Shown: piece after piece, positions 52-60,074 of the stretch
Layout: the number at the start of each line of letters is the position of its first letter
Position numbering within the stretch: position 1 is the first letter of the stretch
Translations under genes and position numbers: made by a program
Notes under the pieces: generated by a model
Told to the model about the DNA's origin: nothing
The model's input: the letters and a program-made list of their open reading frames with translations, nothing else
The model's database searches: none
Assembly: GCA_964505005.1 (NCBI GenBank)
Contig: CAZDFQ010000003.1
Location: 1 to 62,222, forward strand
DNA length: 62,222 bases
Origin: an uncultured Candidatus Saccharibacteria bacterium
Lineage (GTDB): Bacteria > Patescibacteriota > Minisyncoccia > UBA6257 > 2-01-FULL-56-20
Reading direction: 5' to 3'

Positions 52-196
52 GTGGTCAATTTTGGAAAAAGTGCGAACCTACTACGAACAGAACCCCGAC
101 GAAACCTAACCGCTCGGGCGGCGCGGAATTCCCCCCTTGAACCCCCCTTCCGCGCCGCCCTCGCGGGAGTCCAAGCATTTCGCCCGCGAAGCGGGC
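52..196. repeat. Arm A, copy 1 (145 bp; perfect inverted repeat of 2487-2631)
   Basis: Base-by-base reverse-complement identity with 2487-2631; ORFs 21..206 and 2462..2773 share the same peptide. Confidence 0.97.
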
Positions 197-546
197 TAAA
201 TTCCAAATACCCTCAATAATTTTCTAAACCAACCTTCTTGCGTTCTTTCTGTTTGTGTAGAATTTTTGCTTGGCGGAACTGTCGTTGGTATTTTATACTC
301 TGGCGCTGGCTCTGTATACCCTGCACCATTCTTATTTAGATGACTTTTAATTGGTTCTTTGGGCTGTGATAATCCTTTTGATCTATGGCAATGATACTCA
401 CCATACGATAACCCCCAGTTTGGACAGTTAGTGCGACAAGTGTGGCAACCGGAGGCATCCGTTCTTCCAGGATGGGCGAGAGCTGCCGTAGGACCAAAAG
501 AAACAAAAAAGAAAATGATTATAGCTAAATATCTTTTGGATCTCAT
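196..546 (-). CDS. YHYH-domain-like small secreted protein
   Basis: Signal peptide (…ALA|HPG), HPGRTDASGCH…EYHCH motif typical of the YHYH family. Confidence 0.7.
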   Translation of the reverse strand: MRSKRYLAIIIFFFVSFGPTAALAHPGRTDASGCHTCRTNCPNWGLSYGEYHCHRSKGLSQPKEPIKSHLNKNGAGYTEPAPEYKIPTTVPPSKNSTQTERTQEGWFRKLLRVFGI

Positions 547-547
547 T

Positions 548-1681
548 TTATTTAAATAAACCGGAGAAAAAGTTAAATATTTCTTTATACCACGGGATTT
601 TAAGCGTCACAGGATTTTTATTATCTGTATTGGTTGAGGTCGCAACTTTTTCGGCGGGGGTAGTAGATGATGATGCCAATGTTGATGTTTTTACTTTTGG
701 ACTCTCCTTTGACTCTTTAACCGGAAGTTTTTTAGGAACATCCTGAATTATAGGTTCAATCTTTTTTGTTTCTACTATCGGTGGTTTTTGAGCTTCGGTC
801 GTAATATTTTTAACACACTGACTGCCATTCCAATAATAATTGGATATACAATTACAATTTATTTTCCCATTTTCTCCTTTTGTTCCAACAATGTTTACAT
901 CATTATTATTTACAGCCTGACAGCTTTGAGTATAGGTAATGCACTGATTGCTTGTGTTTAAGACAAAGCCCTCTGGACATGAAAGTATCTGAACACATGC
1001 TGATTTTTCTGTATTGGCCGTATATCCTGCATTACAAGTACATTGCCCGTTCACAAGGGAAGAATTTGCCGGACAAGACGGTGTGGTTGGTGGAATATAA
1101 GTAGAGCCACCGCTGTAAAACCCGCCGCCTGAACTGCCTAAATCTTTTGCATCCCAAACTTTACAATCTCTACCCGAATCGAATAGATATATCCGGTCGC
1201 CAATACCATCCAAGAATGACCCACCAATATCAATATCTATCGTTTTTCCCTCATACCGCCACATGCTTAGGCCGCACCCTATGCCGTATTCAACAAGAAA
1301 TCGATCATTATTTTTATCAGTTACGATTATCTTGTCTTCTGAATCAAAAACGTCATCAACATAATATCTTTTAATGTTCACGTCGTCGGAACTCGTAACT
1401 TCGCAAACTGTATTTGAATAGCCTGGGATAATAATTTTATCTCCGTAACTTGGAGAATAAGATGTGTCTATGTAAATTGTCGCTCCGTCGTAAAAATCAC
1501 TACTATAGCAACTGTAGTCATGCTCAATGACATACTCTGAATAACCATCTGTAATTAAAATTTTGTCCGACCCTCCCTTCTCTACCACGAATCCCTTCGC
1601 AGCATAAGCAACTTGAAAATATCCCCCCAGGATAAATGTCGCAAAGATAAAGATTATTGATGGTTTGATAAATTTTTTCAT
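548..1681 (-). CDS. Secreted protein with EGF-like Cys-rich repeats and a Pro/Thr/Lys-rich C-terminal stalk
   Basis: Signal peptide MKKFIKPS…AYA; CPANSSLVNGQCTCNAGY, CPEGFVLNTSNQC and CNCISNYYWNGSQC repeats; start moved to the ATG at 1681. Confidence 0.7.
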   Translation of the reverse strand: MKKFIKPSIIFIFATFILGGYFQVAYAAKGFVVEKGGSDKILITDGYSEYVIEHDYSCYSSDFYDGATIYIDTSYSPSYGDKIIIPGYSNTVCEVTSSDDVNIKRYYVDDVFDSEDKIIVTDKNNDRFLVEYGIGCGLSMWRYEGKTIDIDIGGSFLDGIGDRIYLFDSGRDCKVWDAKDLGSSGGGFYSGGSTYIPPTTPSCPANSSLVNGQCTCNAGYTANTEKSACVQILSCPEGFVLNTSNQCITYTQSCQAVNNNDVNIVGTKGENGKINCNCISNYYWNGSQCVKNITTEAQKPPIVETKKIEPIIQDVPKKLPVKESKESPKVKTSTLASSSTTPAEKVATSTNTDNKNPVTLKIPWYKEIFNFFSGLFK

Positions 1682-1703
1682 GAGATTAAAAACCATCAAA
1701 AAT

Positions 1704-1958
1704 TCACGGCTCAACAGTTTCTAAATTATCTAACGCATAACCCATATCTTCATAAGACGACCAAGCATATCCTTTGGCATCATCAATATTTGAATTAGCT
1801 TGGTCTAAAGCGTCAGAATAGGAATTGACTTTATAGTCCAAGTCAGAAACTTCGTCCTGTAGTGTTTGGACTTGTGCGGTCAATTTATGATGATCTCTCC
1901 AAAACCAAATTGAGAGAATTATTAAAACTATAAAAAGCCATCCGCCTTTTCCTTCCAT
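1704..1958 (-). CDS. Small membrane-anchored coiled-coil protein
   Basis: One N-terminal hydrophobic helix then heptad-like QVQTLQDEVSDL; co-oriented in the operon. Confidence 0.6.
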   Translation of the reverse strand: MEGKGGWLFIVLIILSIWFWRDHHKLTAQVQTLQDEVSDLDYKVNSYSDALDQANSNIDDAKGYAWSSYEDMGYALDNLETVEP

Positions 1959-1965
1959 AAATTGT

Positions 1966-2199
1966 TTACCACTTAAAAGGGTTTACCGTTCCTTTCTTTC
2001 CAGTATAAGGATTATAATTTCCTTTTGTGGAGAAATTATCGAACTTGGAACGGTTCGGGGTGGTTTTGTAATGCGGTGCAACATAGCTACCAGTTGATGG
2101 TTTGTAATATCCCCTTACACGAGTCGTTCGTGCTTCTGCCGAAATCGAAAACGAGAGAACACCAACCAATAGAGCCAACACCAGAAATAATTTTTTCAT
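1966..2199 (-). CDS. Small secreted hypothetical protein
   Basis: Signal peptide (AEA), then VRGYYK…YVAPHYKT…DNFSTKGNYNPYTGKKG, a pattern recognisable from widespread small accessory proteins. Confidence 0.7.
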   Translation of the reverse strand: MKKLFLVLALLVGVLSFSISAEARTTRVRGYYKPSTGSYVAPHYKTTPNRSKFDNFSTKGNYNPYTGKKGTVNPFKW

Positions 2200-2203
2200 A
2201 TTT

Positions 2204-2422
2204 TTATAGAAAATATTTTATATCCTTTCCGTAGATTTTTGCGAACCTTTTTAATTCTACAACGTCAATCCTTTGCTGTCCTGATTCGACGTTGGAGATA
2301 TGCGATTGCGGCCGACCTATTTTTCTCGCAACCTGTACTTGTGTCAACCCTGCCTCTTGTCGAGCTTTTCGTAAACGCTCAACAAAATAAGCATATTCCT
2401 TTGCGTGGATTGACTTAACCAT
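2204..2422 (-). CDS. XRE-family helix-turn-helix transcriptional regulator
   Basis: LRKARQEAGLTQVQVARKIGRPQSHISNVESGQQRI: classic HTH_3 pattern. Confidence 0.9.
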   Translation of the reverse strand: MVKSIHAKEYAYFVERLRKARQEAGLTQVQVARKIGRPQSHISNVESGQQRIDVVELKRFAKIYGKDIKYFL

Positions 2423-2449
2423 ATATTAACAAGATATATCCAAGAAATC

Positions 2450-2470
2450 AATATCCAAACTTTGGATATT
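2450..2470. promoter_or_regulatory. Perfect palindrome AATATCCAAA-C-TTTGGATATT, candidate XRE operator
   Basis: 10-bp arms about 28 bp upstream of the XRE start; overlaps a possible minus-strand -35 (TTGATT, 17 nt, TAATAT). Confidence 0.5.
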
Positions 2471-2486
2471 GTGATAAACTCAAAAT

Positions 2487-2631
2487 GCCCGCTTCGCGGG
2501 CGAAATGCTTGGACTCCCGCGAGGGCGGCGCGGAAGGGGGGTTCAAGGGGGGAATTCCGCGCCGCCCGAGCGGTTAGGTTTCGTCGGGGTTCTGTTCGTA
2601 GTAGGTTCGCACTTTTTCCAAAATTGACCAC
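2487..2631. repeat. Arm A, copy 2 (145 bp; inverted repeat of 52-196)
   Basis: Direct sequence comparison. Confidence 0.97.
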
Positions 2632-2695
2632 ATTTCACGATTTGAGAGGGTTAGCGCCTCGGGGCTTCGCCCCTCGGCGCCCGCTTTCGCCAAGT
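2628..2695. repeat. Arm B, copy 1 (68 bp; perfect inverted repeat of 4202-4269)
   Basis: ccacatttcacgatttgagagggttagcgcc…cgccaagt is the reverse complement of 4202-4269. Confidence 0.97.
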
Positions 2696-2769
2696 CGAGC
2701 CGATTTTTCCGCCGAAGGCGGAGAAGCAAGATTTATAAATTGTCGGCGTAAAACCATTTTGTTGAAAAT

Positions 2770-4344
2770 ATGATCAAATATTTTATCTATTGCAGAAAAT
2801 CTAGCGAGGAAGAGGAACGGCAAATTCTTTCTATCGAGGCGCAGCAAACTGAACTGCGAGAGTATGCCAAACAGAACAATTTGATTGTGATAAAAGAATT
2901 TGCCGAATCGCAAAGCGCTAAAGAGCCGGGCCGCCCTATTTTCAACAAAATGGTTGAAGAAATTGAGAAAGGCAACGCTCAAGGAATTTTAGCGTGGAAT
3001 CCCGACAGATTGGCGAGAAATTCTATTGATGGCGGGAGAATAATTTATCTCGTGGATACTGGAAAAATCCAATCGCTAAAATTCCCGACATTTTGGTTCG
3101 AAGCGACACCGCAAGGGAAGTTCATGTTGAGCGTTGCCTTTGGACAAGCTAAATATTACACCGACAATTTGAGAGAAAACATTTTGCGCGGGATACGTCA
3201 GAAAATCAGGCGCGGCGAACTATCGGCAAAAGCTCCATTGGGATATTTCAATGAACCTCGTTTGAGGACGATTGAGCCAGACCCCAAGAATTTCAAAAAT
3301 GTAAAAACTATTTTGGAAGCTTTTGCCACCGGAGAATATACACTCACCGCCATTCAGTGCAAAATGTTTTCTCTCGGCTTGGTTGGCAAGGACGGAAAAC
3401 CGCCCCACCTCTCCTCGATAGCCCACATACTTGATAATCCGTTCTATTACGGCGTTTGCCGCTATCGAGGAGAGCTGTATCAAGGATCACACAAGCCAAT
3501 GATTACAAAGAAACTTTTTGACCAAATCCAACAGGCGCTTTTGGATCATGGCAAACCCCGCAAAAAGCGAGGAGATAAAGGGTTTAAATTTCTCGGTTTT
3601 GCGACTTGTGGGGAGTGCGGCTATTGCATTACTGCCGAGCGCAAAATCAAAAAGAGCGGCAAGGAATACGTCTATTATCGTTGCACCAAAAAAAGCAAAA
3701 CCCACAAGTGTTCGCAAAACCGCTTTTTGCAGGAGCCGGAGCTTACCAAGCAAGTTATCCAAAATCTTCAAAAAGTTTCTTTGTCTGATGAGTGGCGCGA
3801 GAAGTATCTCGCGAAAGTGAATGAATGGGAAAATGAAAATCGCCACTCATCAGGTCTTTTCGCTCAAAATCTGCGGGCAAAACTGGAAGAAGTGAAAAAG
3901 AAAATTGACCGCCTTTTGGACGCTCACCTTGAGGGCGCGCTTGAACTCTCGGAATATCAGCAAAAGAAGAACGCCCTCGTTGAGCAAAAGGCGGATTTGC
4001 AACAAAAACTTTCCGATTTTGAGCGAAAAGGCAATCATTGGCTCGAACTCGTGCGGAATTGGATTTTAGACGCCAACCAAGCCAAAAATCTTGCTTCCAC
4101 AGAAAATTTTGATGAAATCAAAAATTTTCTGAAAAAAATCGGCTCGAACCAAAAAATCGAGAACCAGTTGCTCTCGATTTTTTGGAAATCCCCTTGGGAT
4201 TACTTGGCGAAAGCGGGCGCCGAGGGGCGAAGCCCCGAGGCGCTAACCCTCTCAAATCGTGAAATGTGGAGATGGGCGGAATCGAACCGCCGTCTAAAGA
4301 TGATATCGGCGAACCTTCTACGAGCGTATCTAGTTAGGAACTAG
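2770..4344 (+). CDS. Large serine recombinase (resolvase + recombinase + zinc ribbon + coiled coil)
   Basis: YCRKS catalytic Ser, DRLARN, APLGY, CGECG…YYRC…C zinc ribbon, C-terminal coiled coil; last 24 codons are antisense to tmRNA. Confidence 0.95.
   Translation: MIKYFIYCRKSSEEEERQILSIEAQQTELREYAKQNNLIVIKEFAESQSAKEPGRPIFNKMVEEIEKGNAQGILAWNPDRLARNSIDGGRIIYLVDTGKIQSLKFPTFWFEATPQGKFMLSVAFGQAKYYTDNLRENILRGIRQKIRRGELSAKAPLGYFNEPRLRTIEPDPKNFKNVKTILEAFATGEYTLTAIQCKMFSLGLVGKDGKPPHLSSIAHILDNPFYYGVCRYRGELYQGSHKPMITKKLFDQIQQALLDHGKPRKKRGDKGFKFLGFATCGECGYCITAERKIKKSGKEYVYYRCTKKSKTHKCSQNRFLQEPELTKQVIQNLQKVSLSDEWREKYLAKVNEWENENRHSSGLFAQNLRAKLEEVKKKIDRLLDAHLEGALELSEYQQKKNALVEQKADLQQKLSDFERKGNHWLELVRNWILDANQAKNLASTENFDEIKNFLKKIGSNQKIENQLLSIFWKSPWDYLAKAGAEGRSPEALTLSNREMWRWAESNRRLKMISANLLRAYLVRN
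4202..4269. repeat. Arm B, copy 2 (68 bp, inside the recombinase 3' end, ending at the tmRNA CCAC)
   Basis: Direct sequence comparison with 2628-2695. Confidence 0.97.
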
Positions 4345-4584
4345 CAAGATGCTCCGTGTTTGATTTCGCCGGAGCGCATAACAGAGCTTATGGGCTCGGC
4401 TACACCTCCTTGTATAAGACCGGTGTTAATCTAAGAGGTTCAGATTAGCCGATCCTCTGGCTTATGCGTAAGCAAATGCCGGAGCTGCAACTTTTTGGTT
4501 GGCAGTTATTTGTTTTGCGAGTTTAACGACATCGCGGTCGACTCGCCGGTTCGCGACTCATCTTTATCGAAGCCGGTCATCCCC
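4266..4584 (-). ncRNA. ssrA: tmRNA
   Basis: 5' GGGGATGACCGGCTTCGA; 3' T-arm GGCGGTTCGATTCCGCC then CATCTCCAC; acceptor stem GGGGATG/CATCTCC with G3.U Ala identity pair; adjacent to smpB; CCA not fully encoded. Confidence 0.95.
4462..4503 (-). other. tmRNA tag reading frame ANQKVAAPAFAYA*
   Basis: Upstream ATAACT then GCC resume codon; Ala/aromatic-rich end; TAA stop. Confidence 0.85.
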
Positions 4585-4679: not shown

Positions 4680-5117
4680 TTAAAGAGCTTTCCTCATTTC
4701 CCTTTCCGCCGCGCGTTTTTTGAGCAATTCCCGTTTGTCCGATTTTTTTCGGCTTTTGGCCAAGCCGAGTTCAAGTTTTATAAACCCCTTTTTGAGATAA
4801 GCCCGGAGCGGAATCAAAGAAAACGATTTCTGCCGGAGCTTGCCCAAGAGAGTTTGGATTTCATTTTTATGGAGAAGCAGACGCCGCGAGCGATTGGGGT
4901 CGTAATTAGTCGGAACATTTTTCGGCTGATACGCTGGAATCGAGGAATTCAAAAGCCAAAATTCGCCGGCTCGGGGCACGGCATAGCTCGCGGACAAATC
5001 GAACCGACCGCTCTTGGCGCTTTTGACTTCTTGGCCAGTCAATTCAATGCCGGCTTCGTATCTGTCGAGAATTTCGTAATCGAATCTGGCGCGTTTGTTT
5101 TCGGCGATAGGTTTCAT
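4680..5117 (-). CDS. smpB: SsrA-binding protein
   Basis: IAENKRARFDYEILDRYEAGIELTGQEVKS; RSRRLLLHKNEI; basic C-terminal tail. Confidence 0.98.
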   Translation of the reverse strand: MKPIAENKRARFDYEILDRYEAGIELTGQEVKSAKSGRFDLSASYAVPRAGEFWLLNSSIPAYQPKNVPTNYDPNRSRRLLLHKNEIQTLLGKLRQKSFSLIPLRAYLKKGFIKLELGLAKSRKKSDKRELLKKRAAEREMRKAL

Positions 5118-6228: not shown

Positions 6229-8049
6229 ATGATTAAAGCTAAGATTGAAAATCTTTTGAAAAATACGATTGGCAAAAGCGAGTTTGAAGTTTTTGTCCCC
6301 GAAAAAGAAGTTTTCGGCCATTACTCGACGAATGCGGCTTTGCGAATAGGAAAAGCCGAGAATAAAAACCCTTCGGAAGTTGCGGGCAAGATAGTTGAGA
6401 AATTAGAAAAAACCGTGCCCAAAGGGTTTTTTGAAAAAATCGAAATCGCCAATCCGGGCTTCATCAATTTCTGGCTGTCAGCGGAAGTTTTACAAAACGA
6501 ACTGAAAGAAATTTCAAGACAAGGAGAAAATTACGGGAGGCAAACCCTTCGACGGATTCGACAAGCTCACCGCAGGCAGGCTCAGGGCAAGAAAGTAATG
6601 GTCGAATTCACCGACCCTAATCCTTTCAAGGAATTTCACATCGGTCATCTTTACAGCAACATCGTCGGCGAAACCTTAAGCCGGTTGCTGGAAGCGAGCG
6701 CGGCGAAAGTCAAAAGAGCCAATTATCAGGGCGATGTGGGCTTGCATGTGGCCAAAGCGGTCTGGGGGATGAGGAAAGAAATGGAGCGGCAGAAATTGAG
6801 TTTGAAAAAACTGGAGAGTAAGCCGCTCGATTTTCGGATTAAATTTATGGGTTCGGCTTATGCCAAAGGCAACCGCGCTTATGAAGAAGACACCACAGCC
6901 AAAGTGGATATTATTGAACTTAATAAGAAAATCTTTTCCCTGCCTGCCTTCGCTGAAGCTTCGACGGCCATCAGGGACAAAGAAATTAAAGCCCTGTATC
7001 AGAAAGGCCGGGCCTGGAGCTTGGCTTATTTTGAAAAAATTTATAAGCGACTCGGCACAAAATTCGATTTTTATTATTTCGAGCGCGAAGTCGGCGAAAC
7101 TGGACTGCAACTCGTAAAAGAAAACATCAAAAAAGGGATTTTTGAAGAAAGCGAAGGTGCCATTGTTTTCCCCGGCGAAAAATACGGCCTCCATCGCCGG
7201 GTGTTCATCAACTCTGAAGGCCTGCCCACTTACGAAGCTAAAGAGCTCGGTTTGGAGACGGCTAAATTCAAGGATTTTCCAGCTGATGCCTACATTGTTG
7301 TCACCGGCAACGAAATTATTGATTACTTCAAAGTGGTGCTGGCGGCTTTGAGGCAGATTAATCCCGGCCTGGAAAAGAAGGTTAAGCACATTGCCCACGG
7401 CATGGTCAGATTCGCTTCGGGCAAAATGTCGAGCAGAAGCGGCGAAGTCATAAAAGTAGAAGAATTGCTGGAGGAAATGAAAAAGCGGGTTTTGAAAATT
7501 ATGGCGTCATCGAGCCGAGGGAATAAAGAGATAGCCGAAGCCGTGGCTTTAGGCGCAGTCAAGTATTCATTTCTTAAAACCAACATCGGCCAGGACATTG
7601 TTTTTGATTTTGAAAAATCATTGAGTTTGAAAGGCGACAGCGGGCCGTATCTTCAATATACTTATGCGCGGTTGCGGAGCATTCTCCGCAAAGCGCCCTC
7701 TCGACTTCGCTCTGGGCAGGCAAGAGATAAGGAAATTTTGCCTTCATTGGTTAAAGGGGAGGAGTTGCGGCTTACCAGAAAAATCATTGAATTTCCGGAC
7801 ATTGTCCGGCAGAGCGCCGAGTCGTTTTCGCCGAATTATCTCGCCAAATATCTTTACGAACTGGCTGATTTGGCCAATCATTACTATGAATCAACGCCGA
7901 TTCTATCCGCCAGAGGCGGACCCGCCTTGGGCGGAAAAGATAAAGACATTAACCGGCGCCGGGCGCGACTGATTCTTATTTCAACGGTCAGTTCGGTTCT
8001 CAAATCAGGACTCGGTCTTTCGGGAATTAAGGCGTTGGAAAGAATCTAA
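6229..8049 (+). CDS. argS: Arginine--tRNA ligase
   Basis: FTDPNPFKEFHIGH (HIGH), KMSSRSG, GDSGPYLQYTYAR; four short repeat-derived insertions. Confidence 0.98.
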   Translation: MIKAKIENLLKNTIGKSEFEVFVPEKEVFGHYSTNAALRIGKAENKNPSEVAGKIVEKLEKTVPKGFFEKIEIANPGFINFWLSAEVLQNELKEISRQGENYGRQTLRRIRQAHRRQAQGKKVMVEFTDPNPFKEFHIGHLYSNIVGETLSRLLEASAAKVKRANYQGDVGLHVAKAVWGMRKEMERQKLSLKKLESKPLDFRIKFMGSAYAKGNRAYEEDTTAKVDIIELNKKIFSLPAFAEASTAIRDKEIKALYQKGRAWSLAYFEKIYKRLGTKFDFYYFEREVGETGLQLVKENIKKGIFEESEGAIVFPGEKYGLHRRVFINSEGLPTYEAKELGLETAKFKDFPADAYIVVTGNEIIDYFKVVLAALRQINPGLEKKVKHIAHGMVRFASGKMSSRSGEVIKVEELLEEMKKRVLKIMASSSRGNKEIAEAVALGAVKYSFLKTNIGQDIVFDFEKSLSLKGDSGPYLQYTYARLRSILRKAPSRLRSGQARDKEILPSLVKGEELRLTRKIIEFPDIVRQSAESFSPNYLAKYLYELADLANHYYESTPILSARGGPALGGKDKDINRRRARLILISTVSSVLKSGLGLSGIKALERI

Positions 8050-13093: not shown

Positions 13094-14092
13094 TTAAATC
13101 AATCCCACTTTTTTCTTGACTTCGAGAATTTTTTTCTCGGCAACGGCGGCGGCCTGCTCCGAGCCGGAATCTAAAACAGCTTTTAGCTTATAACTTTTAG
13201 CTGTTAACTCTTTCTTTTTCTTTCGGAAATCGGCGAAGTAGTCGGCGATAAGCCCGGCCAGAGATTTTTTGAATCCGGCATAGCCGGAGGCATAGCCCTG
13301 GCCAGCGAATTTCTTTTCGATTTTTGATATTGGTTCATCCGTGAGCGAGGAGTAAATTTCTAGAAGATTGCTGATGCCTGGCTTCCTTTCGGGGTCGTGC
13401 TTGATTTCTGTTCCGGAGTCAGTGGTGGCCCGGCTGATTTTTCTTTTTATATCTTCCGGCCTATCGTCCAGGAAAAGACAACCCTCGGGCTGGGACTTGG
13501 ACATTTTCTTTTGCGGGTCAGCCAAAGACATCACCCGCGGGGTTTTAGTTAGAATCGGTTTTGGTTCAATGAAAGTTTTGCCGAACCGGTTGTTGAATTT
13601 TCTTGCCAAAGTCCGGGTGAGTTCGAGATGTTGCAGCTGGTCCTCGCCGACCGGGACAAACTTGGCGTCATAAAGCAAAATGTCAGCAGCCATAAGAACA
13701 GGATACATTAGAAGCCCGGAATTTGCCTCTTCTTTTTTAACCATTACTTTGTCTTTATATTGCGTCATCCGCCGCAATTCTCCTTCCGGGGTTATCGTCG
13801 TTAGAAGCCACATAAGCTCGGCGTGGGCAGGAATCTGCGATTGAACAAAAATCGTTGATTTTTTCGGTGTTAGTCCGGCAGCCAGATATTCAGTAGCTAA
13901 TTCTAAAATCTGGTCATATTTTTCTTCCGGTTTGAAATCTTCAGTCAAAGAATGAAGGTCGGCAATAAAAAAATAGCATTGGTATTTATCTGAGTTTTGA
14001 ATTCCCACAAAATTTTTTAACGAACCCAAAAAATTGCCGATATGCAACCGGCCTGTTGGCTGGACTCCGGAGATAAGGATTGGTTTAGCCAT
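13094..14092 (-). CDS. trpS: Tryptophan--tRNA ligase
   Basis: SGVQPTGRLHIGN, YPVLMAADIL, VPVGEDQLQH, KMSKS. Confidence 0.98.
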   Translation of the reverse strand: MAKPILISGVQPTGRLHIGNFLGSLKNFVGIQNSDKYQCYFFIADLHSLTEDFKPEEKYDQILELATEYLAAGLTPKKSTIFVQSQIPAHAELMWLLTTITPEGELRRMTQYKDKVMVKKEEANSGLLMYPVLMAADILLYDAKFVPVGEDQLQHLELTRTLARKFNNRFGKTFIEPKPILTKTPRVMSLADPQKKMSKSQPEGCLFLDDRPEDIKRKISRATTDSGTEIKHDPERKPGISNLLEIYSSLTDEPISKIEKKFAGQGYASGYAGFKKSLAGLIADYFADFRKKKKELTAKSYKLKAVLDSGSEQAAAVAEKKILEVKKKVGLI

Positions 14093-17111: not shown

Positions 17112-18164
17112 TCATTTCATCAATTTTTTCAGTTTAGCGATGATTTCGGTTTTGGCCGGGTCAAAGCGATTTAGTTTTGCCAGGAAATAAGTCGTCCAGT
17201 CCGCCAGAATCAAGGCGTTCCAAATTTTCTCCAATTTACTCGAGCCGATGAGCGCCAGTTTCAAAGTAAGCACACCTTTTTCTTTCAAAAGTTTTTCAGT
17301 TAGAGCGAAACGTTTTCTAATTCTAAAATTGGCAGCATCGTTCAGGAAAATGGCGGCAAATTTCCCGCCGGCTTTTTCAAAGCCGACAATTTCGTTATGA
17401 TTCATTTCCGGCAGAACATTATTGAACGCCGGCGTTTTGGCGGTTTCGTTGAATTTTATTTTCCAAATATAACCGAGCTGATAGTTTTTTTGGTCAGTGT
17501 AAATTAAGACAAATCGATTTTTTAATTTTCGGGCCAGTAGTCCCCCGGGCACTTCGAATTTAGTCGGCTGGAGGCCCGTAAATTCCTTAACTTTCAGGCG
17601 AAAACCGGCAGCTTCAAGAATTTTTACAAGTCCGTAAAACATTCTACCAACGGCCTGGCGAGGCGTCAAGTCGGCCGCCGGAAACAAGATTAGAGGCAGC
17701 CGATTCTGGAGCACTATTTTTTTGAGTTCACCGCCGCTGGTTATCGCGGCTAAATTAGCTTTTACCTGCCCGCCGAGGTCTCGGCGGAGGCGGGGCTTTG
17801 AGCTTTGAGCTTTTAGCAATGATTTTATTCCGGAAAGCGTTTCTTCAGTGGCGCCGGAAAAAGAAACGAAAATATGGAGCGGATTTTTGAAGGGAGAATC
17901 AGGCCTTTCGGCTCGGCTCCCGCCTCCGTCAAGGCTTCGGCAGGCAGGCAGGCCGTAATCTTTCCAAATTATAATCGGCAACTTCAAACCAATTTCTTCT
18001 TTAACTGATTTGAGAATTTCGCCGGCCAAGCCCGAACCGCCCATCCCATAAATTATTAGGCCATCGAAGCGGCGATTTTTCAGTTTTTCCAGATTATAAC
18101 CTCCCAAGCCAGAGCGGCCGAGCTGGTGGTTGAATTGAAGAATGTTTTTACGGAAAGAATCCAT
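17112..18164 (-). CDS. Bifunctional phosphoglucose/phosphomannose isomerase (SIS domain)
   Basis: GMGGSG, SFSGATEET, WKIKFNETAK, PEMNHNE; two repeat-derived insertions. Confidence 0.9.
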   Translation of the reverse strand: MDSFRKNILQFNHQLGRSGLGGYNLEKLKNRRFDGLIIYGMGGSGLAGEILKSVKEEIGLKLPIIIWKDYGLPACRSLDGGGSRAERPDSPFKNPLHIFVSFSGATEETLSGIKSLLKAQSSKPRLRRDLGGQVKANLAAITSGGELKKIVLQNRLPLILFPAADLTPRQAVGRMFYGLVKILEAAGFRLKVKEFTGLQPTKFEVPGGLLARKLKNRFVLIYTDQKNYQLGYIWKIKFNETAKTPAFNNVLPEMNHNEIVGFEKAGGKFAAIFLNDAANFRIRKRFALTEKLLKEKGVLTLKLALIGSSKLEKIWNALILADWTTYFLAKLNRFDPAKTEIIAKLKKLMK

Positions 18165-20171: not shown

Positions 20172-20300
20172 AAATTTTAATTTCCAAATCCTAATTTCTA
20201 AACAATCCGCCAGGTGACGGACAAATGACCAAAAATCAAAATCCAAAACCGTTTAGAATTTAGAGATAATGAAATTTCGTTTCCTCAATAATTAGTTCGC

Positions 20301-20376
20301 CCCGCCCGCCTGAGTTGCTCTCCCTGCCCGCCCCGCGTTGCGGAGCAAGGCAGGCGGGAGGCAAGTCGGGCGCGGT
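20301..20376. repeat. 38-bp palindromic repeat carrying a 38-bp nested insert (filled copy)
   Basis: Removing 20321-20358 gives exactly 59981-60018. Confidence 0.9.
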
Positions 20377-20381
20377 CGGCT

Positions 20382-20735
20382 TTATTCCTTGGTGGCTAAA
20401 TGGAAGATGAAATTGATGGCGCCGATAATCAATGACGAATAAATCAGCGCCGGCACGGTTTCAATAGTAAGATTCGGCGACAGGATGTCAAGAAGATAGA
20501 GGATTATGACATTGACGAGAATTAAGCCGAGGCCGAGAGTCAAGATTATTATTGGACCGAGAAAGAGTTTGATAACCGGTTTTAGGATGAAATTAAGCAG
20601 CGCGAGAACGGCACTCAGGAGCAACAAGTCGCTGATAGTGATTTTCAAATGGAAGTCGGGGATAAAATAAGCAGCGGCCAAAAGGCCGATGGCATTGGCA
20701 ATTAAAGCAACGATTATTTTGGCGATTGTCTTCAT
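20382..20735 (-). CDS. Phage-holin-family (YvlD-like) 4-TM membrane protein
   Basis: LNFILKPVIKL…PIIILTLGL pattern; four hydrophobic segments. Confidence 0.8.
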   Translation of the reverse strand: MKTIAKIIVALIANAIGLLAAAYFIPDFHLKITISDLLLLSAVLALLNFILKPVIKLFLGPIIILTLGLGLILVNVIILYLLDILSPNLTIETVPALIYSSLIIGAINFIFHLATKE

Positions 20736-20768: not shown

Positions 20769-20963
20769 GCCAGCAGGATTTCTCGGAACCGGCCGTCGTT
20801 CGCTCCAGCGGCGAACTGCGGCCTGCCCTCTCGGCGAAAAACTTTGGCTTCGCCAAAGACCAAGCTTTTTCGCCTCCGAGAGCTTCCTTAAAATCCTGCT
20901 GGCCCTCCAGCCAATCGAGGTTCTATTCATGGCTCAGCTGGCGATTTTCTTGGCGAATTGCTG
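20769..20963. mobile_element. MITE-like structured repeat, short copy
   Basis: 13-bp IR GCCAGCAGGATTT/AAATCCTGCTGGC (20769-20781/20891-20903); colinear homology with 47246-47615. Confidence 0.7.
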
Positions 20964-21022: not shown

Positions 21023-22312
21023 TCAAACGAAACCTAAAAAGCTTTTCCGGCGGCGTTGGCGATGGAAACTAATCGTAAAACGATGGGTCTCGAAAATGAC
21101 AGCGGGAATTATCTTCTGGAGTTCAGCTGGCGCTTGGCTGAGTTTTTTTGGATTTTTTCCAAGCCCGTAAACGAGTTTTCCCGGTTTGGCAAAGGAGATT
21201 ATTTTAGCTTTTAGCTTACCGCGCCCGCTTTCGTCTTGCGAAAGCAAGGCGGGCGGGTAGCTTTTTCCGCCCGAGGCGGATCCGCTTTTGGCGGAAGCGT
21301 TTAGAAAGGTTCTTTGAGCGGCTTTGAATTGCGTTAAACCACCATCGATAATGATTAAATCTGGATACGGCCATTCCGGATGATTCAGGCGCCGGTTTAG
21401 CGCTTCCGCGATAGCCGCCGGGTCGTCGGCTGACTTGGCGGTTCGGATAATGAATTTCCGCCAGAATTTTTTTCGCGGTTTCAAGGCCTGGCCATCGAAG
21501 TACCAAGCCGTCAGGCCAGCAGCGGTTTCTTTGCCGGACAGATGAGAAACATCATAGCCCTCAATTAGATAGCTGGGTTTCTGGGTAACTGGGGAACTGG
21601 GTTGGTCAAAATTTTCGAGGAATTCCCGGTGGGCGAGGATTTTTTCCAGCGCTGTTTTTTCCTCCAGCTTTAGATTTTTTTGGATGCTCTTTAAGGGTTT
21701 CCCAAGAAGAAAATTTCTAATCAAGCAGATGTTTTTAAGATAATTTTTTGTTTCGGTCGCGGTCGGCCGGCTGTTTTTTCGGCAGCAGAATCCCGGACAG
21801 TTGCCGATTTGAGAATTGAGACAAAGGCGGAAATGGGGTTTGGGGCAGGTGCAGTAGGGGAAAGAGCGGCGCAGCATTCTCAGAACCAGGCGCAGGGCCC
21901 GACCCTCGGTGAAGGGACCGATAAGAATGGGGTTTAGGGTATAGGGTTTAGGGTGAGGGGTTTTTGATTTATGAACAACGAAGAGGCGGGGAAATTTATC
22001 TTTTGTGATTATCGCGTAAAAGTAGCTTTTGTCGTCTCGCCAGAGAACATTATAAAGAGGATTTAGTTTTTTAATCAGCTTGGACTCTTCAAGCAGCGCC
22101 TCGATTTCCGAGCGGAGCGGAATCAATTTCAGGCTGGTCGCATTTTCCCGTAGCCGCTCGCTTTTAAAATCGTCAGCCCTTAGATACGACTGCAGCCGGC
22201 TCCTAAGATTCGATGCTTTACCAATGTAAAGCGGCTGGTGTTTTTTATAGAAAATATAGACACCCGGCGTTTTCGGCGCTTTATCGATTTTTTCTCGAAT
22301 TATCTGCTCCAC
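21023..22312 (-). CDS. uvrC: Short UvrC-like excinuclease (GIY-YIG + RNase H-like domain)
   Basis: PGVYIF…LYIGKASNLRSRLQSY, EALLEESKLIK, GYDVSHLSG, PDLIIIDGG; no C-terminal HhH recognisable. Confidence 0.8.
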   Translation of the reverse strand: MEQIIREKIDKAPKTPGVYIFYKKHQPLYIGKASNLRSRLQSYLRADDFKSERLRENATSLKLIPLRSEIEALLEESKLIKKLNPLYNVLWRDDKSYFYAIITKDKFPRLFVVHKSKTPHPKPYTLNPILIGPFTEGRALRLVLRMLRRSFPYCTCPKPHFRLCLNSQIGNCPGFCCRKNSRPTATETKNYLKNICLIRNFLLGKPLKSIQKNLKLEEKTALEKILAHREFLENFDQPSSPVTQKPSYLIEGYDVSHLSGKETAAGLTAWYFDGQALKPRKKFWRKFIIRTAKSADDPAAIAEALNRRLNHPEWPYPDLIIIDGGLTQFKAAQRTFLNASAKSGSASGGKSYPPALLSQDESGRGKLKAKIISFAKPGKLVYGLGKNPKKLSQAPAELQKIIPAVIFETHRFTISFHRQRRRKSFLGFV

Positions 22313-28871: not shown

Positions 28872-28899
28872 GTTCCCTGTCTGCCGGCAGGCAGGGAAC
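28872..28899. repeat. Near-perfect palindrome GTTCCCTGTCTGCCGGCAGGCAGGGAAC
   Basis: Self-complementary except for one G.T position. Confidence 0.8.
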
Positions 28900-29085
28900 G
28901 GCAATCGTCCGCCTCGGGCGGATGTTGCCTCGCTGCCGATTGGAGAAGTTAGCGGTTCTTCGACCTCGGCATTTTAGCGTGTTTACTGTTTAGGCGGGCA
29001 GCTTAATTCTTGTCAGATAGAAAATTGGCGGCTTAAGCTTCCTGCTTAATTTACAAGATGGTAGTTAATTGCTATATTCTTATGG

Positions 29086-29595
29086 ATGAAGCCTTGGATT
29101 GACAGAAAAACAGAAGTTAGAAAATTCAAAAAAGAAGAGGCCAGCTGGTTAGCCGGCGTTATTGATGGAGAGGGGTCAATTGGTTTATATAATTATGGCA
29201 GAGAGGGCAGGAGGGTATGTATTCAGCTGGCTAATACGAACAAGGAGTTTGTTTGTAAGGTTAGAAGGATTGTGGGCTGCGGGTCTCAAATTAACAGAAC
29301 TGGCTGGCATAAAAGCCACAAAGGGAGGAAAGCATTATACCTATACAGCTTGAAAGGTTCAAACAGATGTTATCGGGCTTTAAAGCAGATTGTGCCGTAT
29401 CTGATTATAAAGAGAAAGAAAGCAATAGATATTTTGAAAGAACTCGAAGAAAAACCGTTTGGAAGATGGTTGAACGCCCTTCCAGAATACAGAAAGATGC
29501 ATTCGGATAGATTAAAAAAGCAATGGCAAAATCCGATAATAAGGCAAAAAATGATTGAGGGGATAAAAAGATATTATGAATCAAGAAAGAAGTAA
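29086..29595 (+). CDS. Free-standing single-motif LAGLIDADG homing endonuclease
   Basis: [14 protein letters not shown]; IQLANT; YLIIKRKKA; overlaps the gmd start by 20 bp. Confidence 0.88.
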
Positions 29596-46109: not shown

Positions 46110-46257
46110 AAAGATTCGGTGGCGCTTGTTTTCGGTAGAACGATTTTTTTGACTGCAATGGTTATTCATAAATATAATATAAAGCAGACAATCCACCAAC
46201 CACCCACCTTAACGTTTAAAAAATGTCACGGCGTATAACATTTTTTCATTTGGTTCG

Positions 46258-46333
46258 CCCCGCCCCCCTGAGTTCGCTCAGGCGACCCGCCCGCTTCGCC
46301 TTGCGAAGCAAGGCGGGCGGGAGTCGGGCGTGG
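46258..46333. repeat. Palindromic repeat with a nested insert (second filled variant)
   Basis: cccgcccccctgagttcgctcaggc…agtcgggcgtggt host with insert 46284-46321. Confidence 0.75.
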
Positions 46334-46430
46334 TCGCCGCAAATAAAACTTCGTTTTCCTTGCGGACTCGCTGCCAAATGGATGAAATTTAATTTCATTA
46401 TTTGGTTCGCTCGGCCAAAATGAAAATAAA

Positions 46431-47222
46431 ATGATTTTCACTTTGCTCTTCGTTGCCAAATGTAATAAGTTCTGGCGAAGAATATGTTTAGTCGGCCGCG
46501 GCCTCTATTTGTTCAAGGATTGGCCGACTTGGCTGGGCTACCGATTCGGAATTTTTAAAAAGAGCGGTCGTGGCGTTTTCCGGTTAAGAAACGGCGTTGT
46601 TTTCCAAGTTGATTTTTCAGCCGGCGGCCCAGGAGTTTTCCAGGAGGTCTGGCTGATGGACCTTTATGAAAAGCATTATCGGATAAAACCCGGGGATGTT
46701 ATTCTGGACATTGGCGCTCATATCGGCGCTTTCTCGGTGCTGGCCGCCCGGAAAGGCGCCAAGGTTTTTGCTTACGAGCCCACCCCCCGTTCATTCCGGC
46801 TTCTTTTGGAAAATATAAAAGACTACGATGTTTCGGCTTTTAATCTGGCTGTTTCTTCGAAAGCCGGGGAGATAAAAATACTCAGGCGCCCAGGAGGAGA
46901 AGAGGGGAATAGGCCCCTTGAGCTGGGCAGCAAGAGCAGCGAGTATTTTATCGCTTCCTCAACAACCCTCGCTGACATTTTTCGTCAAAATAACATTGAA
47001 TATTGTAATCTTTTGAAGCTTGACTGCGAAGGCGCGGAGACAACAATCCTTTCAGCCGCGCCAAAAGAATTATTCCAGCGGATAGAAAATATTTCCTTGG
47101 AGTACCATCAGAACTTTGACGAAGTAGTTAAAATTATTAAATCCAAAGGTCACAAAATTGTGGGCTCGAGCGGCCAGAAGTATGGTTATCTTTATTCTAA
47201 AAAAGCAAAATTGGTATCATAA
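46431..47222 (+). CDS. FkbM-family methyltransferase
   Basis: LDIGAHIG, YEP, LKLDCEGAE. Confidence 0.92.
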   Translation: MIFTLLFVAKCNKFWRRICLVGRGLYLFKDWPTWLGYRFGIFKKSGRGVFRLRNGVVFQVDFSAGGPGVFQEVWLMDLYEKHYRIKPGDVILDIGAHIGAFSVLAARKGAKVFAYEPTPRSFRLLLENIKDYDVSAFNLAVSSKAGEIKILRRPGGEEGNRPLELGSKSSEYFIASSTTLADIFRQNNIEYCNLLKLDCEGAETTILSAAPKELFQRIENISLEYHQNFDEVVKIIKSKGHKIVGSSGQKYGYLYSKKAKLVS

Positions 47223-47245: not shown

Positions 47246-47615
47246 GCCAGCAGGTTTCTCGGAACCGCGGTCAGCTCGCTCCAGCGGCTCGCTGCCGCTG
47301 CCTCTCGGCGAAAAACTTTGGCTTCGCCAAAGACCGAGCTTTTTCGCCTCCGAGAGCTTCCTCAACTCTCCGCGAGCCCAGAAGGCGAGCGGTAAGAGTT
47401 GGCGCGATCCCGCTTATCTCCGAATGAGATTAATGTATTGCTTCTATCGCGGAGAGTACGGTATCCTCGCCCATCTAACCCCAAAACTTCGTTTTTTGGA
47501 GATGGGCGGGACTTCTTCAAAATCCTGCCGGCTGGGTACCCTTCCTACCTGTCCCGTAGTGAATCGAAGTTCTACTTCGGCACTCGAGCGGAGCGGTTTT
47601 CTTGGCGAATTGCTG
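47246..47615. mobile_element. MITE-like structured repeat, long copy with internal hairpin inserts
   Basis: Colinear with 20769-20963 plus a ~155-bp insert after GAGCTTCCT. Confidence 0.7.
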
Positions 47616-59899: not shown

Positions 59900-59980
59900 A
59901 AGTCATCTAATAAATTTTACAGATTCGCATCATTAGTATAATTCGTAGATTTGCATCGCTACCAAGCCGCCTTGTATCGA

Positions 59981-60018
59981 CCCGCCCGCCTGAGTTGCTC
60001 AGGCAAGTCGGGCGCGGT
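59981..60018. repeat. 38-bp palindromic repeat (empty copy)
   Basis: cccgcccgcctgagttgctcaggcaagtcgggcgcggt; equals 20301-20376 without its insert. Confidence 0.9.
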
Positions 60019-60074
60019 GCCAATATACAAATGATGCTAATTATACGAATGACCGGTTAATAAGATAACTCTCT

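What the first reader, a model, noticed from the sequence alone, without database searches (positions are those of the whole stretch)
6545..7935. Four different palindromic repeats inserted in frame in ArgRS
Seen: cccttcgac[…ttcgacaagctcacc…]gctcaggg (6545-6587, nested); ccctgcctgccttcgctgaagcttcgacggccatcaggg (6938-6976, 39 nt); ccctctcgacttcgctctgggcaggcaagag (7696-7726); tccgccagaggcgga-cccgccttgggcgga (7906-7935, 30 nt). These encode odd peptides (RRIRQAHRRQAQG, LPAFAEASTAIR, PSRLRSGQAR, SARGGPALGG). Established: Rickettsia palindromic elements insert into coding loops. Inference: several distinct mobile mini-palindrome families are tolerated in surface loops of an essential enzyme and generate new protein sequence.
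Basis: partly seen in the sequence, partly recalled or inferred. Interest (0 to 1): 0.65.

Follow-up and report, generated by a model that had tools for sequence, protein, structure and literature searches.

The report
Mini GC-rich repeat inserts in ArgRS
The arginyl-tRNA synthetase gene of this candidate-phyla-radiation bacterium carries three or four short GC-rich repeat elements inserted in frame and read as surface loops, one of which is a 30-base double hairpin that is inserted the same way into many essential genes across related uncultured bacteria.

Summary
The gene is ArgRS (6229-8049) of a Patescibacteria (CPR) genome.

- **Insertions:** three segments are clean and private among 118 orthologs (45/30 nt net, 33 nt, 30 nt). 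The fourth lies in a length-variable linker and cannot be called.
- **Palindromes:** only the fourth (7906-7935) is a strong one. The second is weak. The first and third are not palindromic.
- **Families:** the four are mosaics of at least five short repeat families that also occur in other CPR genomes.
- **Structure:** all four fall in low-confidence loops of an otherwise confident AlphaFold model.

The 30-nt double hairpin (TCCGCCnnnGGCGGA twice) occurs in at least 118 distinct contexts in metagenomes.
- 81% of copies in long ORFs sit in one reading frame (SAxGGSAxGG).
- It inserts cleanly between T-N and N-A with no target duplication.
- It hit the same codon boundary independently in ArgRS (three clades) and in AlaRS.

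The best reading is selfish, non-autonomous mini-elements mobilised in trans and filtered by selection for harmless in-frame loops. They resemble Rickettsia RPEs and mitochondrial GC clusters. No mobilising enzyme was found. I found no description of this in CPR.

The parts
6229..8049 (+). Arginyl-tRNA synthetase CDS (606 aa), host of the inserts
   Evidence: Pfam PF03485/PF00750/PF05746 on the identical protein, and 62-63% identity to Candidatus Liptonbacteria ArgRS. Synteny SmpB-ArgRS-NUDIX-IleRS-TrpRS-RNase J with L001.
6545..6589 (+). Insert 1: 45-nt non-palindromic repeat element. It is a composite: an outer 'R' motif CTTCGACGG...GCTCAGGGCAAG with a nested 'D' motif TTCGACAAGCTCACCGCAGGCAGG. 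Read as TLRRIRQAHRRQAQG.
   Evidence: Net +10 aa against all orthologs. 93% identical over 45 nt to L009 11482-11526, inside a GSDH-like ORF of another CPR genome. The short, un-nested form occurs in L012 within a class II aaRS. Depth rises from 19.6 to 91 in the source metagenome. Fold z = 0.
6943..6975 (+). Insert 2: 33-nt insertion (PAFAEASTAIR). The imperfect palindrome spans 6938-6976. Its arms resemble the 'P' palindrome CCTGCCTGCC|GGCAGGCAGG, and its core is the 'F' motif CTTCGCTGAAGCTTCG.
   Evidence: Private 11-aa insertion. Fold z = -2.1. The P and F families are enriched in other CPR loci: 15 hits against 0 in shuffles, and 12 against 1. No near-identical copy in the source metagenome even at 80% likeness.
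7696..7725 (+). Segment 3 (PSRLRSGQAR): GC-rich and not palindromic, in the length-variable linker before the anticodon-binding domain. Possibly an old, decayed repeat copy.
   Evidence: Linker length varies among orthologs. Fold z = +1.2. 18 of 19 nt match L010 2018-2036 in the same reading frame (RLRSG). No extra depth in the metagenome.
7906..7935 (.). Insert 4: 30-nt double-hairpin (DH) element, TCCGCCAGAGGCGGA + CCCGCCTTGGGCGGA, read as SARGGPALGG.
   Evidence: Private 10-aa insertion. Fold z = -4.2. Depth rises from 19.6 to 271, and Logan contigs break here. Same architecture at the same codon boundary in L049 and L050. At least 120 metagenome contigs carry the family.
21218..21301 (-). 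Composite in-frame insert in the UvrC-like gene (21023..22312): DH element 21266-21295 plus a 'G'-family hairpin at about 21220-21262. Read as SAKSGSASGGKSYPPALLSQDESGRG.
   Evidence: Private insertion of at least 20 aa among 120 orthologs. Fold z = -3.5. Depth rises from 16 to 66 over the DH. The hairpin aligns with intergenic copies.
17895..17945 (-). In-frame GC-rich insert in the PGI/PMI gene (17112..18164), carrying the GGCAGGCAGGCAGG motif. Read as ACRSLDGGGSRAERPDS.
   Evidence: About 12 aa are absent from 15 orthologs (alignment A2). Motif hits.
17763..17810 (-). Second in-frame hairpin insert in the PGI/PMI gene. Read as AQSSKPRLRRDLGGQV.
   Evidence: About 14 aa are absent from orthologs. 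Fold z = -2.5.
28872..28922 (.). Intergenic copies: P-family palindrome TTCCCTGTCTGCCGGCAGGCAGGGAA, followed by a single hairpin unit TCCGCCTCGGGCGGA.
   Evidence: Fold z = -4.7.
2708..2722 (.). Single 15-nt hairpin unit TCCGCCGAAGGCGGA, non-coding.
20290..20390 (.). Intergenic 'G'-family GC-rich hairpin cluster. Related copies lie at 46246-46350 and 59955-60030.
   Evidence: Alignment A3. GC islands.

Best explanation
The ArgRS segments are copies, some nested in one another, of ultra-short (15-45 nt) GC-rich, non-autonomous repeat elements that circulate in Patescibacteria genomes.

Proposed mechanism (inferred): the elements are copied into new sites as DNA by an activity supplied in trans. 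That activity has not been identified.

Shown for the best-defined family, the 30-nt double hairpin:
- Insertion is exact and blunt. It lands between T-N and N-A, with no target duplication and no loss of host bases.
- The same codon boundary is hit repeatedly in different lineages.

Inferred:
- The enzyme recognises the hairpin or cruciform rather than the sequence. Subfamilies with different stems keep the same TC-4bp-3nt-4bp-GA x2 architecture.
- Selection then removes copies that break a gene. The survivors in coding DNA have a length divisible by three, contain no stop codon, sit mostly in the one frame that gives a small flexible peptide (SAxGGSAxGG), and lie in surface loops.
- After insertion the copies decay and merge, which gives mosaics such as inserts 1 and 2 and probably segment 3.

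The inserts are translated and tolerated. They are not needed for ArgRS function.
For: Insertions:
- Three private insertions among 118 ArgRS orthologs.
- Two in PGI and one composite in UvrC in the same window.
- The reverse case also exists: the IleRS of L001 carries an insert that the window lacks.

Loops: AlphaFold2 mean pLDDT is 87.6, with dips at residues 101-120, 241-250, 491-500 and 561-571. The PDB alignment places inserts 1 and 4 in gaps.

Multi-copy and cross-genome:
- Insert 1 is 93% identical to a copy in an unrelated gene of L009.
- Depth spikes at inserts 1 and 4 and at the UvrC double hairpin, from contigs with different flanks.
- Families P, F, R and D give 15, 12, 3 and 3 hits against 0, 1, 0 and 0 in shuffles.

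Double-hairpin census:
- 75 of 93 copies in ORFs of at least 150 codons are in frame 0. That compares with 51% expected from target preference alone (p = 2e-9) and with one third (p = 9e-21).
- T at position -2 in 101 of 120 and A at +2 in 100 of 120, also in non-coding copies.
- Hosts include DnaE, FtsK, RecG, GyrB, MutL, AlaRS and DnaK.

Clean filled/empty pairs, each differing by exactly 30 nt:
- AlaRS L140 against L174.
- ArgRS L050 against L175.

Independent hits on the same site:
- Three ArgRS clades carry the element, while the relatives of P0027 at 81-82% identity lack it.
- 7 of 120 AlaRS carry the element or decayed forms of it after 'FF'.

Compensatory stems: TCCGCC, TCCCGC, TCTCGC and TCTGGC are each paired perfectly.
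Against: - No transposase or other candidate mobilising enzyme was found in the window. A crude HUH motif scan of 4405 ORFs in the fetched loci found none.
- No filled/empty polymorphism was seen within one population. Only assembled contigs were available.
- Inserts 1 and 3 are not palindromes, so hairpin recognition cannot explain every family.
- Inserts 2 and 3 have no near-identical copy in the source metagenome.
- The constant arms of the double hairpin across many lineages could reflect a function rather than selfish spread.
- Translation of the inserts is inferred from frame and length statistics. It was not observed, because no RNA run was available.
Confidence: 0.6

Rival explanations
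1. The double hairpin, and perhaps other families, is a functional DNA or RNA signal kept by selection. Candidates are a DNA-uptake or recombination signal for these competence-dependent bacteria, a binding site for a dimeric protein, or an mRNA hairpin that controls stability. It would spread by recombination, and the peptide would be a tolerated by-product.
For: - The consensus has strict two-fold symmetry, with constant arms in at least 118 contexts.
- Compensatory stem variants keep the fold.
- One reading frame is strongly preferred, as is known for uptake sequences in Haemophilus (own knowledge).
Against: - Copies arise as clean 30-nt insertions, not by point mutation.
- Copies decay after insertion: SSKGGFASGG, SAKGGSTSGG, SSKGGSG.
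- Placement is scattered over unrelated genes and positions.
- The closest relatives do without the element.
Confidence: 0.13
2. The inserts are made de novo by replication or repair errors: fold-back priming, template switching at hairpins, or slipped-strand duplication. Their likeness to one another would be convergent.
For: - The double hairpin is a unit plus its reverse complement, which is what fold-back synthesis would give.
- The window's TrpRS shows an ordinary small tandem duplication.
- Tandem expansions such as HSTGSGQA x8 exist in a CPR UvrC.
Against: - The inserted sequences are unrelated to their flanks.
- The same 23 fixed bases recur in at least 118 unrelated contexts.
- A 45-nt non-palindromic element is 93% identical between two genomes and two different genes.
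Confidence: 0.08
3. The inserts are not part of the protein. Either ribosomes bypass them, as with the 27-55-nt 'byps' of Magnusiomyces mitochondria or T4 gene 60, or they are removed from the mRNA.
For: - Size range and GC-rich hairpin character resemble the byps.
Against: - All clean inserts are 30, 33 or 45 nt, all divisible by three, and contain no stop codon.
- 81% of double hairpins in ORFs are in one frame, and loop triplets that would be stop codons appear only in non-coding copies.
- Neither would be expected if the sequence were skipped.
Confidence: 0.03
4. This is ordinary lineage-specific loop variation with no repeat element involved. It applies mainly to segment 3.
For: - The linker at aa 488-500 varies in length among orthologs.
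- Segment 3 has no hairpin and no extra copies in the metagenome.
Against: - It is a GC island of at least 70% in a 46% GC gene.
- 18 of 19 nt match a copy in another gene and genome in the same frame.
- It shares TCGAC...GCAGGCAAG motifs with insert 1.
- For inserts 1, 2 and 4 this reading is excluded.
Confidence: 0.1

Closest known systems
Rickettsia palindromic elements (RPE)
   Same: Several families of non-autonomous repeats inserted in frame into unrelated housekeeping genes. They are translated as extra peptide segments compatible with the fold, and no transposase is known (PMC10969869).
   Different: - RPEs are about 100-150 bp and occur in Rickettsia.
- These elements are 15-45 nt, GC-rich, in Patescibacteria, and unrelated in sequence.
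- Some are not palindromic.
- The double hairpin has a defined blunt TN|NA insertion site.
Mitochondrial GC clusters, double-hairpin elements (Allomyces, Schizosaccharomyces) and repetitive hairpin-forming elements
   Same: - Ultra-short GC-rich hairpin or double-hairpin elements in AT-richer genomes, distributed sporadically.
- Identical copies occur across species.
- Clusters merge and shuffle into composites.
- Copies occasionally lie inside genes, for example a 48-nt cluster in var1.
- The mechanism is unknown (PMC4478555; PMC10085805).
   Different: - Those are organellar and mostly intergenic or in rRNA.
- Yeast clusters are flanked by AG or ACT direct repeats.
- Here the genome is bacterial, most copies are in coding DNA in one frame, and there is no flanking duplication.
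REP / REPIN elements with RAYT transposases, including intragenic REPs
   Same: - 20-40-nt GC-rich stem-loops, often as inverted doublets.
- Some lie inside replication and repair genes, and in Xanthomonas recB at about the same site (PMC3733652).
   Different: - REPs carry a terminal GTAG or CGTC tag, are mainly extragenic, and are linked to RAYT genes.
- The double hairpin begins TCCG and ends CGGA.
- 93 of 122 copies counted lie in ORFs of at least 150 codons.
- No RAYT was found.
Programmed translational bypassing elements (byps) of Magnusiomyces capitatus mitochondria
   Same: 27-55-nt inserts related to GC clusters that sit in essential protein genes, up to 12 per gene.
   Different: Byps disrupt the frame and are skipped by the ribosome. 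These inserts keep the frame and appear to be translated.
MITEs (Correia/NEMIS, ERIC, RUP, Nezha)
   Same: Non-autonomous and multi-copy. They sometimes give in-frame fusions.
   Different: MITEs are 70-300 bp with terminal inverted repeats and target-site duplications. Neither feature holds here.

Membership tests
Rickettsia palindromic elements | Length about 100-150 bp | tested here: not met
   The elements are 30, 33 and 45 nt.
Rickettsia palindromic elements | In-frame insertion into ORFs, with the peptide in a tolerated surface position | tested here: met
   Private in-frame insertions. They fall in low-pLDDT loops of a confident model.
Rickettsia palindromic elements | Sequence relatedness to RPE consensus sequences | not tested
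   No RPE sequences were on hand. Rfam has no match in the window other than tmRNA.
REP/REPIN-RAYT | Short imperfect GC-rich palindrome, often as an inverted doublet | tested here: met
   This holds for insert 4 and weakly for insert 2. The double hairpin is a unit plus its near reverse complement. It does not hold for inserts 1 and 3.
REP/REPIN-RAYT | GTAG or CGTC tetranucleotide at one end | tested here: not met
   The double-hairpin ends are TCCG...CGGA in all 120 copies.
REP/REPIN-RAYT | Predominantly extragenic location | tested here: not met
   93 of the 122 copies counted lie in ORFs of at least 150 codons.
REP/REPIN-RAYT | A RAYT (IS200/IS605-like HUH Y1) gene in the genome | tested here: inconclusive
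   None was found in the 62-kb window among the ORFs scanned. A crude motif scan of 1.57 Mb of loci also found none. The rest of the genome was not available.
MITE | Target-site duplication and terminal inverted repeats, 70-300 bp | tested here: not met
   The filled/empty pairs differ by exactly 30 nt with no duplicated host bases.
Mitochondrial GC clusters / double-hairpin elements | GC-rich element able to form one or two hairpins, dispersed, with merged composites | tested here: met
   Folds. Dispersed copies. Nested composites in inserts 1 and 2 and in the UvrC insert.
Mitochondrial GC clusters / double-hairpin elements | Resides in a mitochondrial genome; yeast clusters are flanked by AG or ACT repeats | tested here: not met
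   The genome is bacterial (CPR). No flanking direct repeat is present.
Translational bypass elements (byps, T4 gene 60) | The insert disrupts the reading frame and must be skipped | tested here: not met
   Lengths are divisible by three, the frame stays open, and 81% of copies are in one frame. Translation itself was not observed.
DNA uptake signal sequences | Accumulate by substitution and biased uptake, not by insertion | tested here: not met
   Clean 30-nt insertions. Uptake bias cannot be tested with these tools.
IS200/IS605-derived palindrome-associated elements | Insertion 3' of a specific tetra- or pentanucleotide, asymmetric ends, TnpA in the genome | tested here: inconclusive
   The absence of a target duplication fits. 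However, the flank signal is symmetric (T at -2 and A at +2 in the same copies), and no TnpA was found.

The most novel reading that the evidence does not exclude
The 30-nt double hairpin is the type member of an undescribed class of ultra-short mobile palindromes in Patescibacteria, and possibly beyond. A structure-specific enzyme still to be found would insert it bluntly at TN|NA sites without target duplication. It repeatedly hits the same codon boundaries of essential genes in separate lineages, so unrelated enzymes gain the same SAxGGSAxGG loop. This would make it a bacterial counterpart of mitochondrial GC clusters and a steady source of new loop sequence in reduced genomes.
Probability: 0.45. 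Interest if true: 0.78.

Novelty: new variant of a known kind. Interest (0 to 1): 0.62.

Why it matters
If this is right, candidate-phyla-radiation bacteria are seeded with the shortest known in-frame insertion elements. These bacteria have tiny genomes in which almost every gene is thought to be essential.

Consequences:
- It would explain many odd, low-complexity loops in their predicted proteins, with peptides such as SAKGGSASGG, LPAGRQ, xFAKASxG and LRRGSGQA.
- It would affect alignment, phylogeny and structure prediction for these lineages. It would also break short-read assemblies, as seen at 7909-7935.
- The double hairpin offers a tractable model, with a defined insertion site and clean filled/empty pairs, for asking how hairpin mini-elements move. 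That question has been open for decades for RPEs and for mitochondrial GC clusters.
- The independent hits on one site give natural experiments on which loops of aminoacyl-tRNA synthetases tolerate insertions.

Tried and rejected
- **Rfam:** at gathering threshold only tmRNA was found.
- **k-mer counts** (k = 9 to 12) in the window were dominated by AT-rich words and were not informative.
- **Literature:** searches for the peptides and motifs and for CPR palindromic or in-frame elements found nothing relevant.
- **The window's own contig** could not be fetched, and its species is not in the genome collection.
- **RNA:** no RNA run holds the gene.
- **PDB sequence alignments** of PGI and UvrC were too remote or too partial to place the inserts.
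- **ORF 548..1714** lies between 145-nt perfect inverted repeats and was considered as a possible transposase. It is a secreted Cys-rich protein with no transposase signature.
- **The large serine recombinase** (2770..4344) belongs to an element next to tmRNA. Its ends are unrelated to the mini-elements.
- **The hairpin TCTCCCCAGGGGAGA** in the iPGM gene (24744) lies in conserved coding sequence. I judged it a chance match.
- **Assembly artefact** was rejected. The elements occur in frame in independent assemblies from JGI, ENA, NCBI and Logan.
Full report
**What is there**

The window is a 46% GC stretch of a Patescibacteria (CPR) genome. The ORF 6229..8049 (+) encodes a 606-aa arginyl-tRNA synthetase. 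Its closest relatives (62-63% identity) are from Candidatus Liptonbacteria and Wolfebacteria and are mostly 560-597 aa long. The neighbourhood SmpB-ArgRS-NUDIX-IleRS-TrpRS-RNase J is syntenic with a Liptonbacteria contig.

**Are they insertions?**

In an alignment with 23 orthologs, and then with 117, three segments are private to this protein:
- aa 105-114, a net gain of 10 aa
- aa 239-249, 11 aa or 33 nt
- aa 560-569, 10 aa or 30 nt

The third quoted segment (aa 490-499) sits in the linker before the anticodon-binding domain. That linker varies in length among orthologs, so an insertion cannot be demonstrated there.

An AlphaFold2 model built on the alignment is confident overall (mean pLDDT 87.6, pTM 0.89). 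Its only low-confidence stretches are residues 101-120, 241-250, 491-500 and 561-571, which are the four segments, each lying between helices. Against the Pyrococcus ArgRS structure 2zue, inserts 1 and 4 fall in alignment gaps.

**Are they palindromes?**

Only partly. Folded as single-stranded DNA against 200 shuffles:
- 7903-7938: z = -4.2, none of the shuffles as stable
- 6934-6980: z = -2.1
- 6541-6590: z = 0.0
- 7690-7730: z = +1.2

One strong palindrome, one weak one, and two that are not palindromes.

**Are they repeats?**

Yes, but not four tidy families.

*Insert 4* is two 15-nt hairpin units (TCCGCC nnn GGCGGA). Such units occur 7 times in the window against 0.26 expected. One of these is a second tandem pair inside the UvrC-like gene.

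*Insert 1* is a 45-nt element (6545-6589).
- It is 93% identical to a copy inside a GSDH-like ORF of another CPR genome, L009.
- It is itself nested. Its outer part (CTTCGACGG...GCTCAGGGCAAG) occurs without the inner 24 nt in a class II aaRS of L012 and in the IleRS of L001.

*Insert 2* has arms resembling the palindrome CCTGCCTGCC|GGCAGGCAGG.
- That palindrome has 15 copies in 13 fetched loci against none in shuffles.
- The arms surround a core, CTTCGCTGAAGCTTCG, with 12 copies against 1. The core usually reads xFAKAS/TxG.

*Segment 3* shares 18 of 19 nt, in the same reading frame, with a copy in L010.

In the source mine-drainage metagenome, contig depth jumps from 19.6 to 91 over insert 1 and to 271 over insert 4. 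The extra depth comes from contigs whose flanks differ from one another, and the assembly graph breaks at 7909-7935. Inserts 2 and 3 show no extra depth even at 80% likeness.

**The same thing in other genes**

In the window:
- The PGI/PMI gene has two private GC-rich inserts.
- The UvrC-like gene has a private insert of at least 20 aa, made of a double hairpin plus a hairpin that also occurs in three intergenic clusters.

In relatives:
- The Liptonbacteria IleRS carries an insert (LSAEAGESALRHGSG) that the window's IleRS lacks.
- CPR UvrC-like proteins are full of short private inserts with recurring peptides: LRRGSGQA, HSTGSGQA in tandem, LPAG, IARRSVSAKES, PPHN..WG.

**The double hairpin as a family**

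These represent 118 distinct flank contexts, with a median contig GC of 43%.

- *Reading frame.* Of 93 copies inside ORFs of at least 150 codons, 75 are in the frame that reads SA[KRGEQ]GGSA[FSL]GG.
- *Hosts.* They include DnaE, FtsK, RecG, GyrB, MutL, AlaRS and DnaK. The AlaRS host is CPR by its relatives (Paceibacterota, Moranbacteria, Portnoybacteria).
- *Flanks.* T stands at -2 in 101 of 120 copies and A at +2 in 100 of 120, in non-coding copies as well. In orthologs with an empty site those bases are already present (..TT|AA.., TTG|CAG), so they belong to the target and not to the element.
- *Filled/empty pairs.* Two pairs from close relatives differ by exactly the 30 nt, with no duplication or loss of host bases. 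They are AlaRS L140 against L174, and ArgRS L050 against L175.
- *Why one frame?* TN|NA junctions favour codon boundaries, but this gives only about 51% in that frame. The observed 81% exceeds it (p = 2e-9). Both target preference and selection on the peptide therefore seem to act. The flank model was built mostly from coding copies, so this expectation is, if anything, generous.

**Independent hits on one site**

The boundary after P-[IV]-L in ArgRS carries a 30-nt double hairpin in three clades.
- The carriers are 47-54% identical to one another.
- Their own closest relatives lack the element. For P0027 this includes relatives at 81-82% identity.

In AlaRS the boundary after 'FF' carries the element or decayed versions of it (SSKGGFASGG, SAKGGSTSGG, SSKGGSG) in 7 of 120 relatives. 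The 84-88% relatives of the carrier P0391 lack it.

The Wildermuthbacteria copies use different stems, TCCCGC/GCGGGA with TCTCGC/GCGAGA or TCTGGC/GCCAGA. They keep the same TC-4-3-4-GA x2 architecture.

**Mechanism**

Shown:
- clean in-frame insertions
- many copies at unrelated loci and in different genomes
- a defined insertion site with no target duplication
- recurrence at the same sites
- nesting of one element in another
- decay after insertion
- loop location in the protein

Inferred:
- The elements are selfish and non-autonomous.
- They are mobilised in trans by an enzyme that reads hairpin or cruciform structure.
- Selection filters the copies for frame and for harmless peptides.

I put this reading at 0.6.

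Its main weakness is that no enzyme was found.
- Every window ORF I scanned is a housekeeping gene, a glycan-synthesis gene, a serine recombinase of an unrelated element, or a protein of unknown function with no transposase signature.
- A crude HUH motif scan of 4405 ORFs in the fetched loci found nothing.

Rival readings, each scored lower for the reasons given in its entry:
- a selected DNA or RNA signal
- de novo hairpin synthesis
- translational bypass
- plain loop variation, for segment 3 only

**Comparison with known systems**

The behaviour matches Rickettsia RPEs: in-frame, translated, several families, no transposase. It also matches mitochondrial GC clusters and double-hairpin elements: ultra-short GC hairpins, composites that merge and shuffle, and identical copies across species. 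Intragenic REPs in repair genes, sometimes at the same site, are a further parallel.

Membership fails for each family on a defining feature:
- RPE: length
- REP: the GTAG or CGTC tag, and extragenic location
- MITE: target duplication and size
- Mitochondrial GC clusters: organellar location and flanking repeats
- byps: frame disruption

I found no paper describing such elements in CPR bacteria in the library searched. That is not proof that none exists.

**Verdict**

The feature is real, and it is a new variant of a known kind. Its most interesting part is the 30-nt double hairpin, with its blunt TN|NA insertion and its recurrent hits on the same sites in essential genes.

Noticed in passing
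window 4264-4584 (-): tmRNA gene (Rfam RF00023, 122.8 bits), just downstream of smpB (4680..5117 -).
   Followed up: partly
window 2628-4269: A large serine recombinase (2770..4344; Resolvase + Recombinase + Zn_ribbon_recom; PHROG integrase) lies between 68-nt inverted repeats that are 100% complementary (2628-2695 and 4202-4269). The right arm touches the 3' end of the tmRNA gene. This is probably an integrated or invertible element.
   Followed up: partly
window 52-2631: 145-nt inverted repeats, 100% complementary (52-196 and 2487-2631), enclose ORF 548..1714 (-). The ORF encodes a 388-aa protein with a signal or TM segment and a Cys-rich EGF-like region, with no family match. It could be an invertible segment, a mobile cassette or an assembly artefact. 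This was not resolved.
   Followed up: partly
window 29576-31777 (+) and 29086-29595 (+): The GDP-mannose 4,6-dehydratase is 733 aa. The host sequence ...GILFNHE | SPRRGETF... is split by an insertion of about 385 aa that ends HVHN|S and carries LAGLIDADG motifs ([22 protein letters not shown]), so it is probably an intein. The upstream ORF matches an HNH endonuclease PHROG and, weakly, LAGLIDADG_3.
   Followed up: partly
window 20781-20839 and 47257-47314: A 58-nt GC-rich sequence (TCTCGGAACCG...CTCTCGGCGAAA) occurs twice. Each copy lies a few hundred bases downstream of a G-family hairpin cluster (20290-20390 and 46246-46350). The second pair brackets an FkbM-type methyltransferase gene (46431..47222).
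   Followed up: no
window 13274-13307 (TrpRS 13094..14092 -): A 4-aa tandem duplication (GYASGYAG) relative to the Liptonbacteria ortholog. This is an ordinary slippage-type indel, unlike the repeat inserts.
   Followed up: partly
L001 6883-6935 (IleRS of GCA_016204335.1): The related genome's IleRS has its own 15-aa insert. It is built from a P-like hairpin plus the R motif (CCTGTCTGCCGAGGCAGGC...CTTCGACACGGCTCAGGGCAAGG), and it is absent from the window's IleRS.
   Followed up: yes
P0203 (CPR UvrC-like protein), P0146, P0123: Short insert units occur in tandem arrays inside UvrC-like proteins: HSTGSGQA about 8 times, and IARRSxxAKEx once or twice. Some families therefore also expand locally.
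   Followed up: no
L002 10141-10173 (ArgRS P0003): Another private insert, KPPHQKLWYGD, is encoded by a CCCCCACA...TATGGGG hairpin. Similar peptides (NPPHNRVMWG, DPPHNGVMLGV) recur at several sites in UvrC-like proteins. This is a further family that I did not analyse.
   Followed up: no
L066 (FtsK-like host of a double hairpin): The same protein also carries GTPPxxGG and PLLNKEGVEGGV-type segments. These look like other GC-rich repeat families common in these genomes.
   Followed up: no
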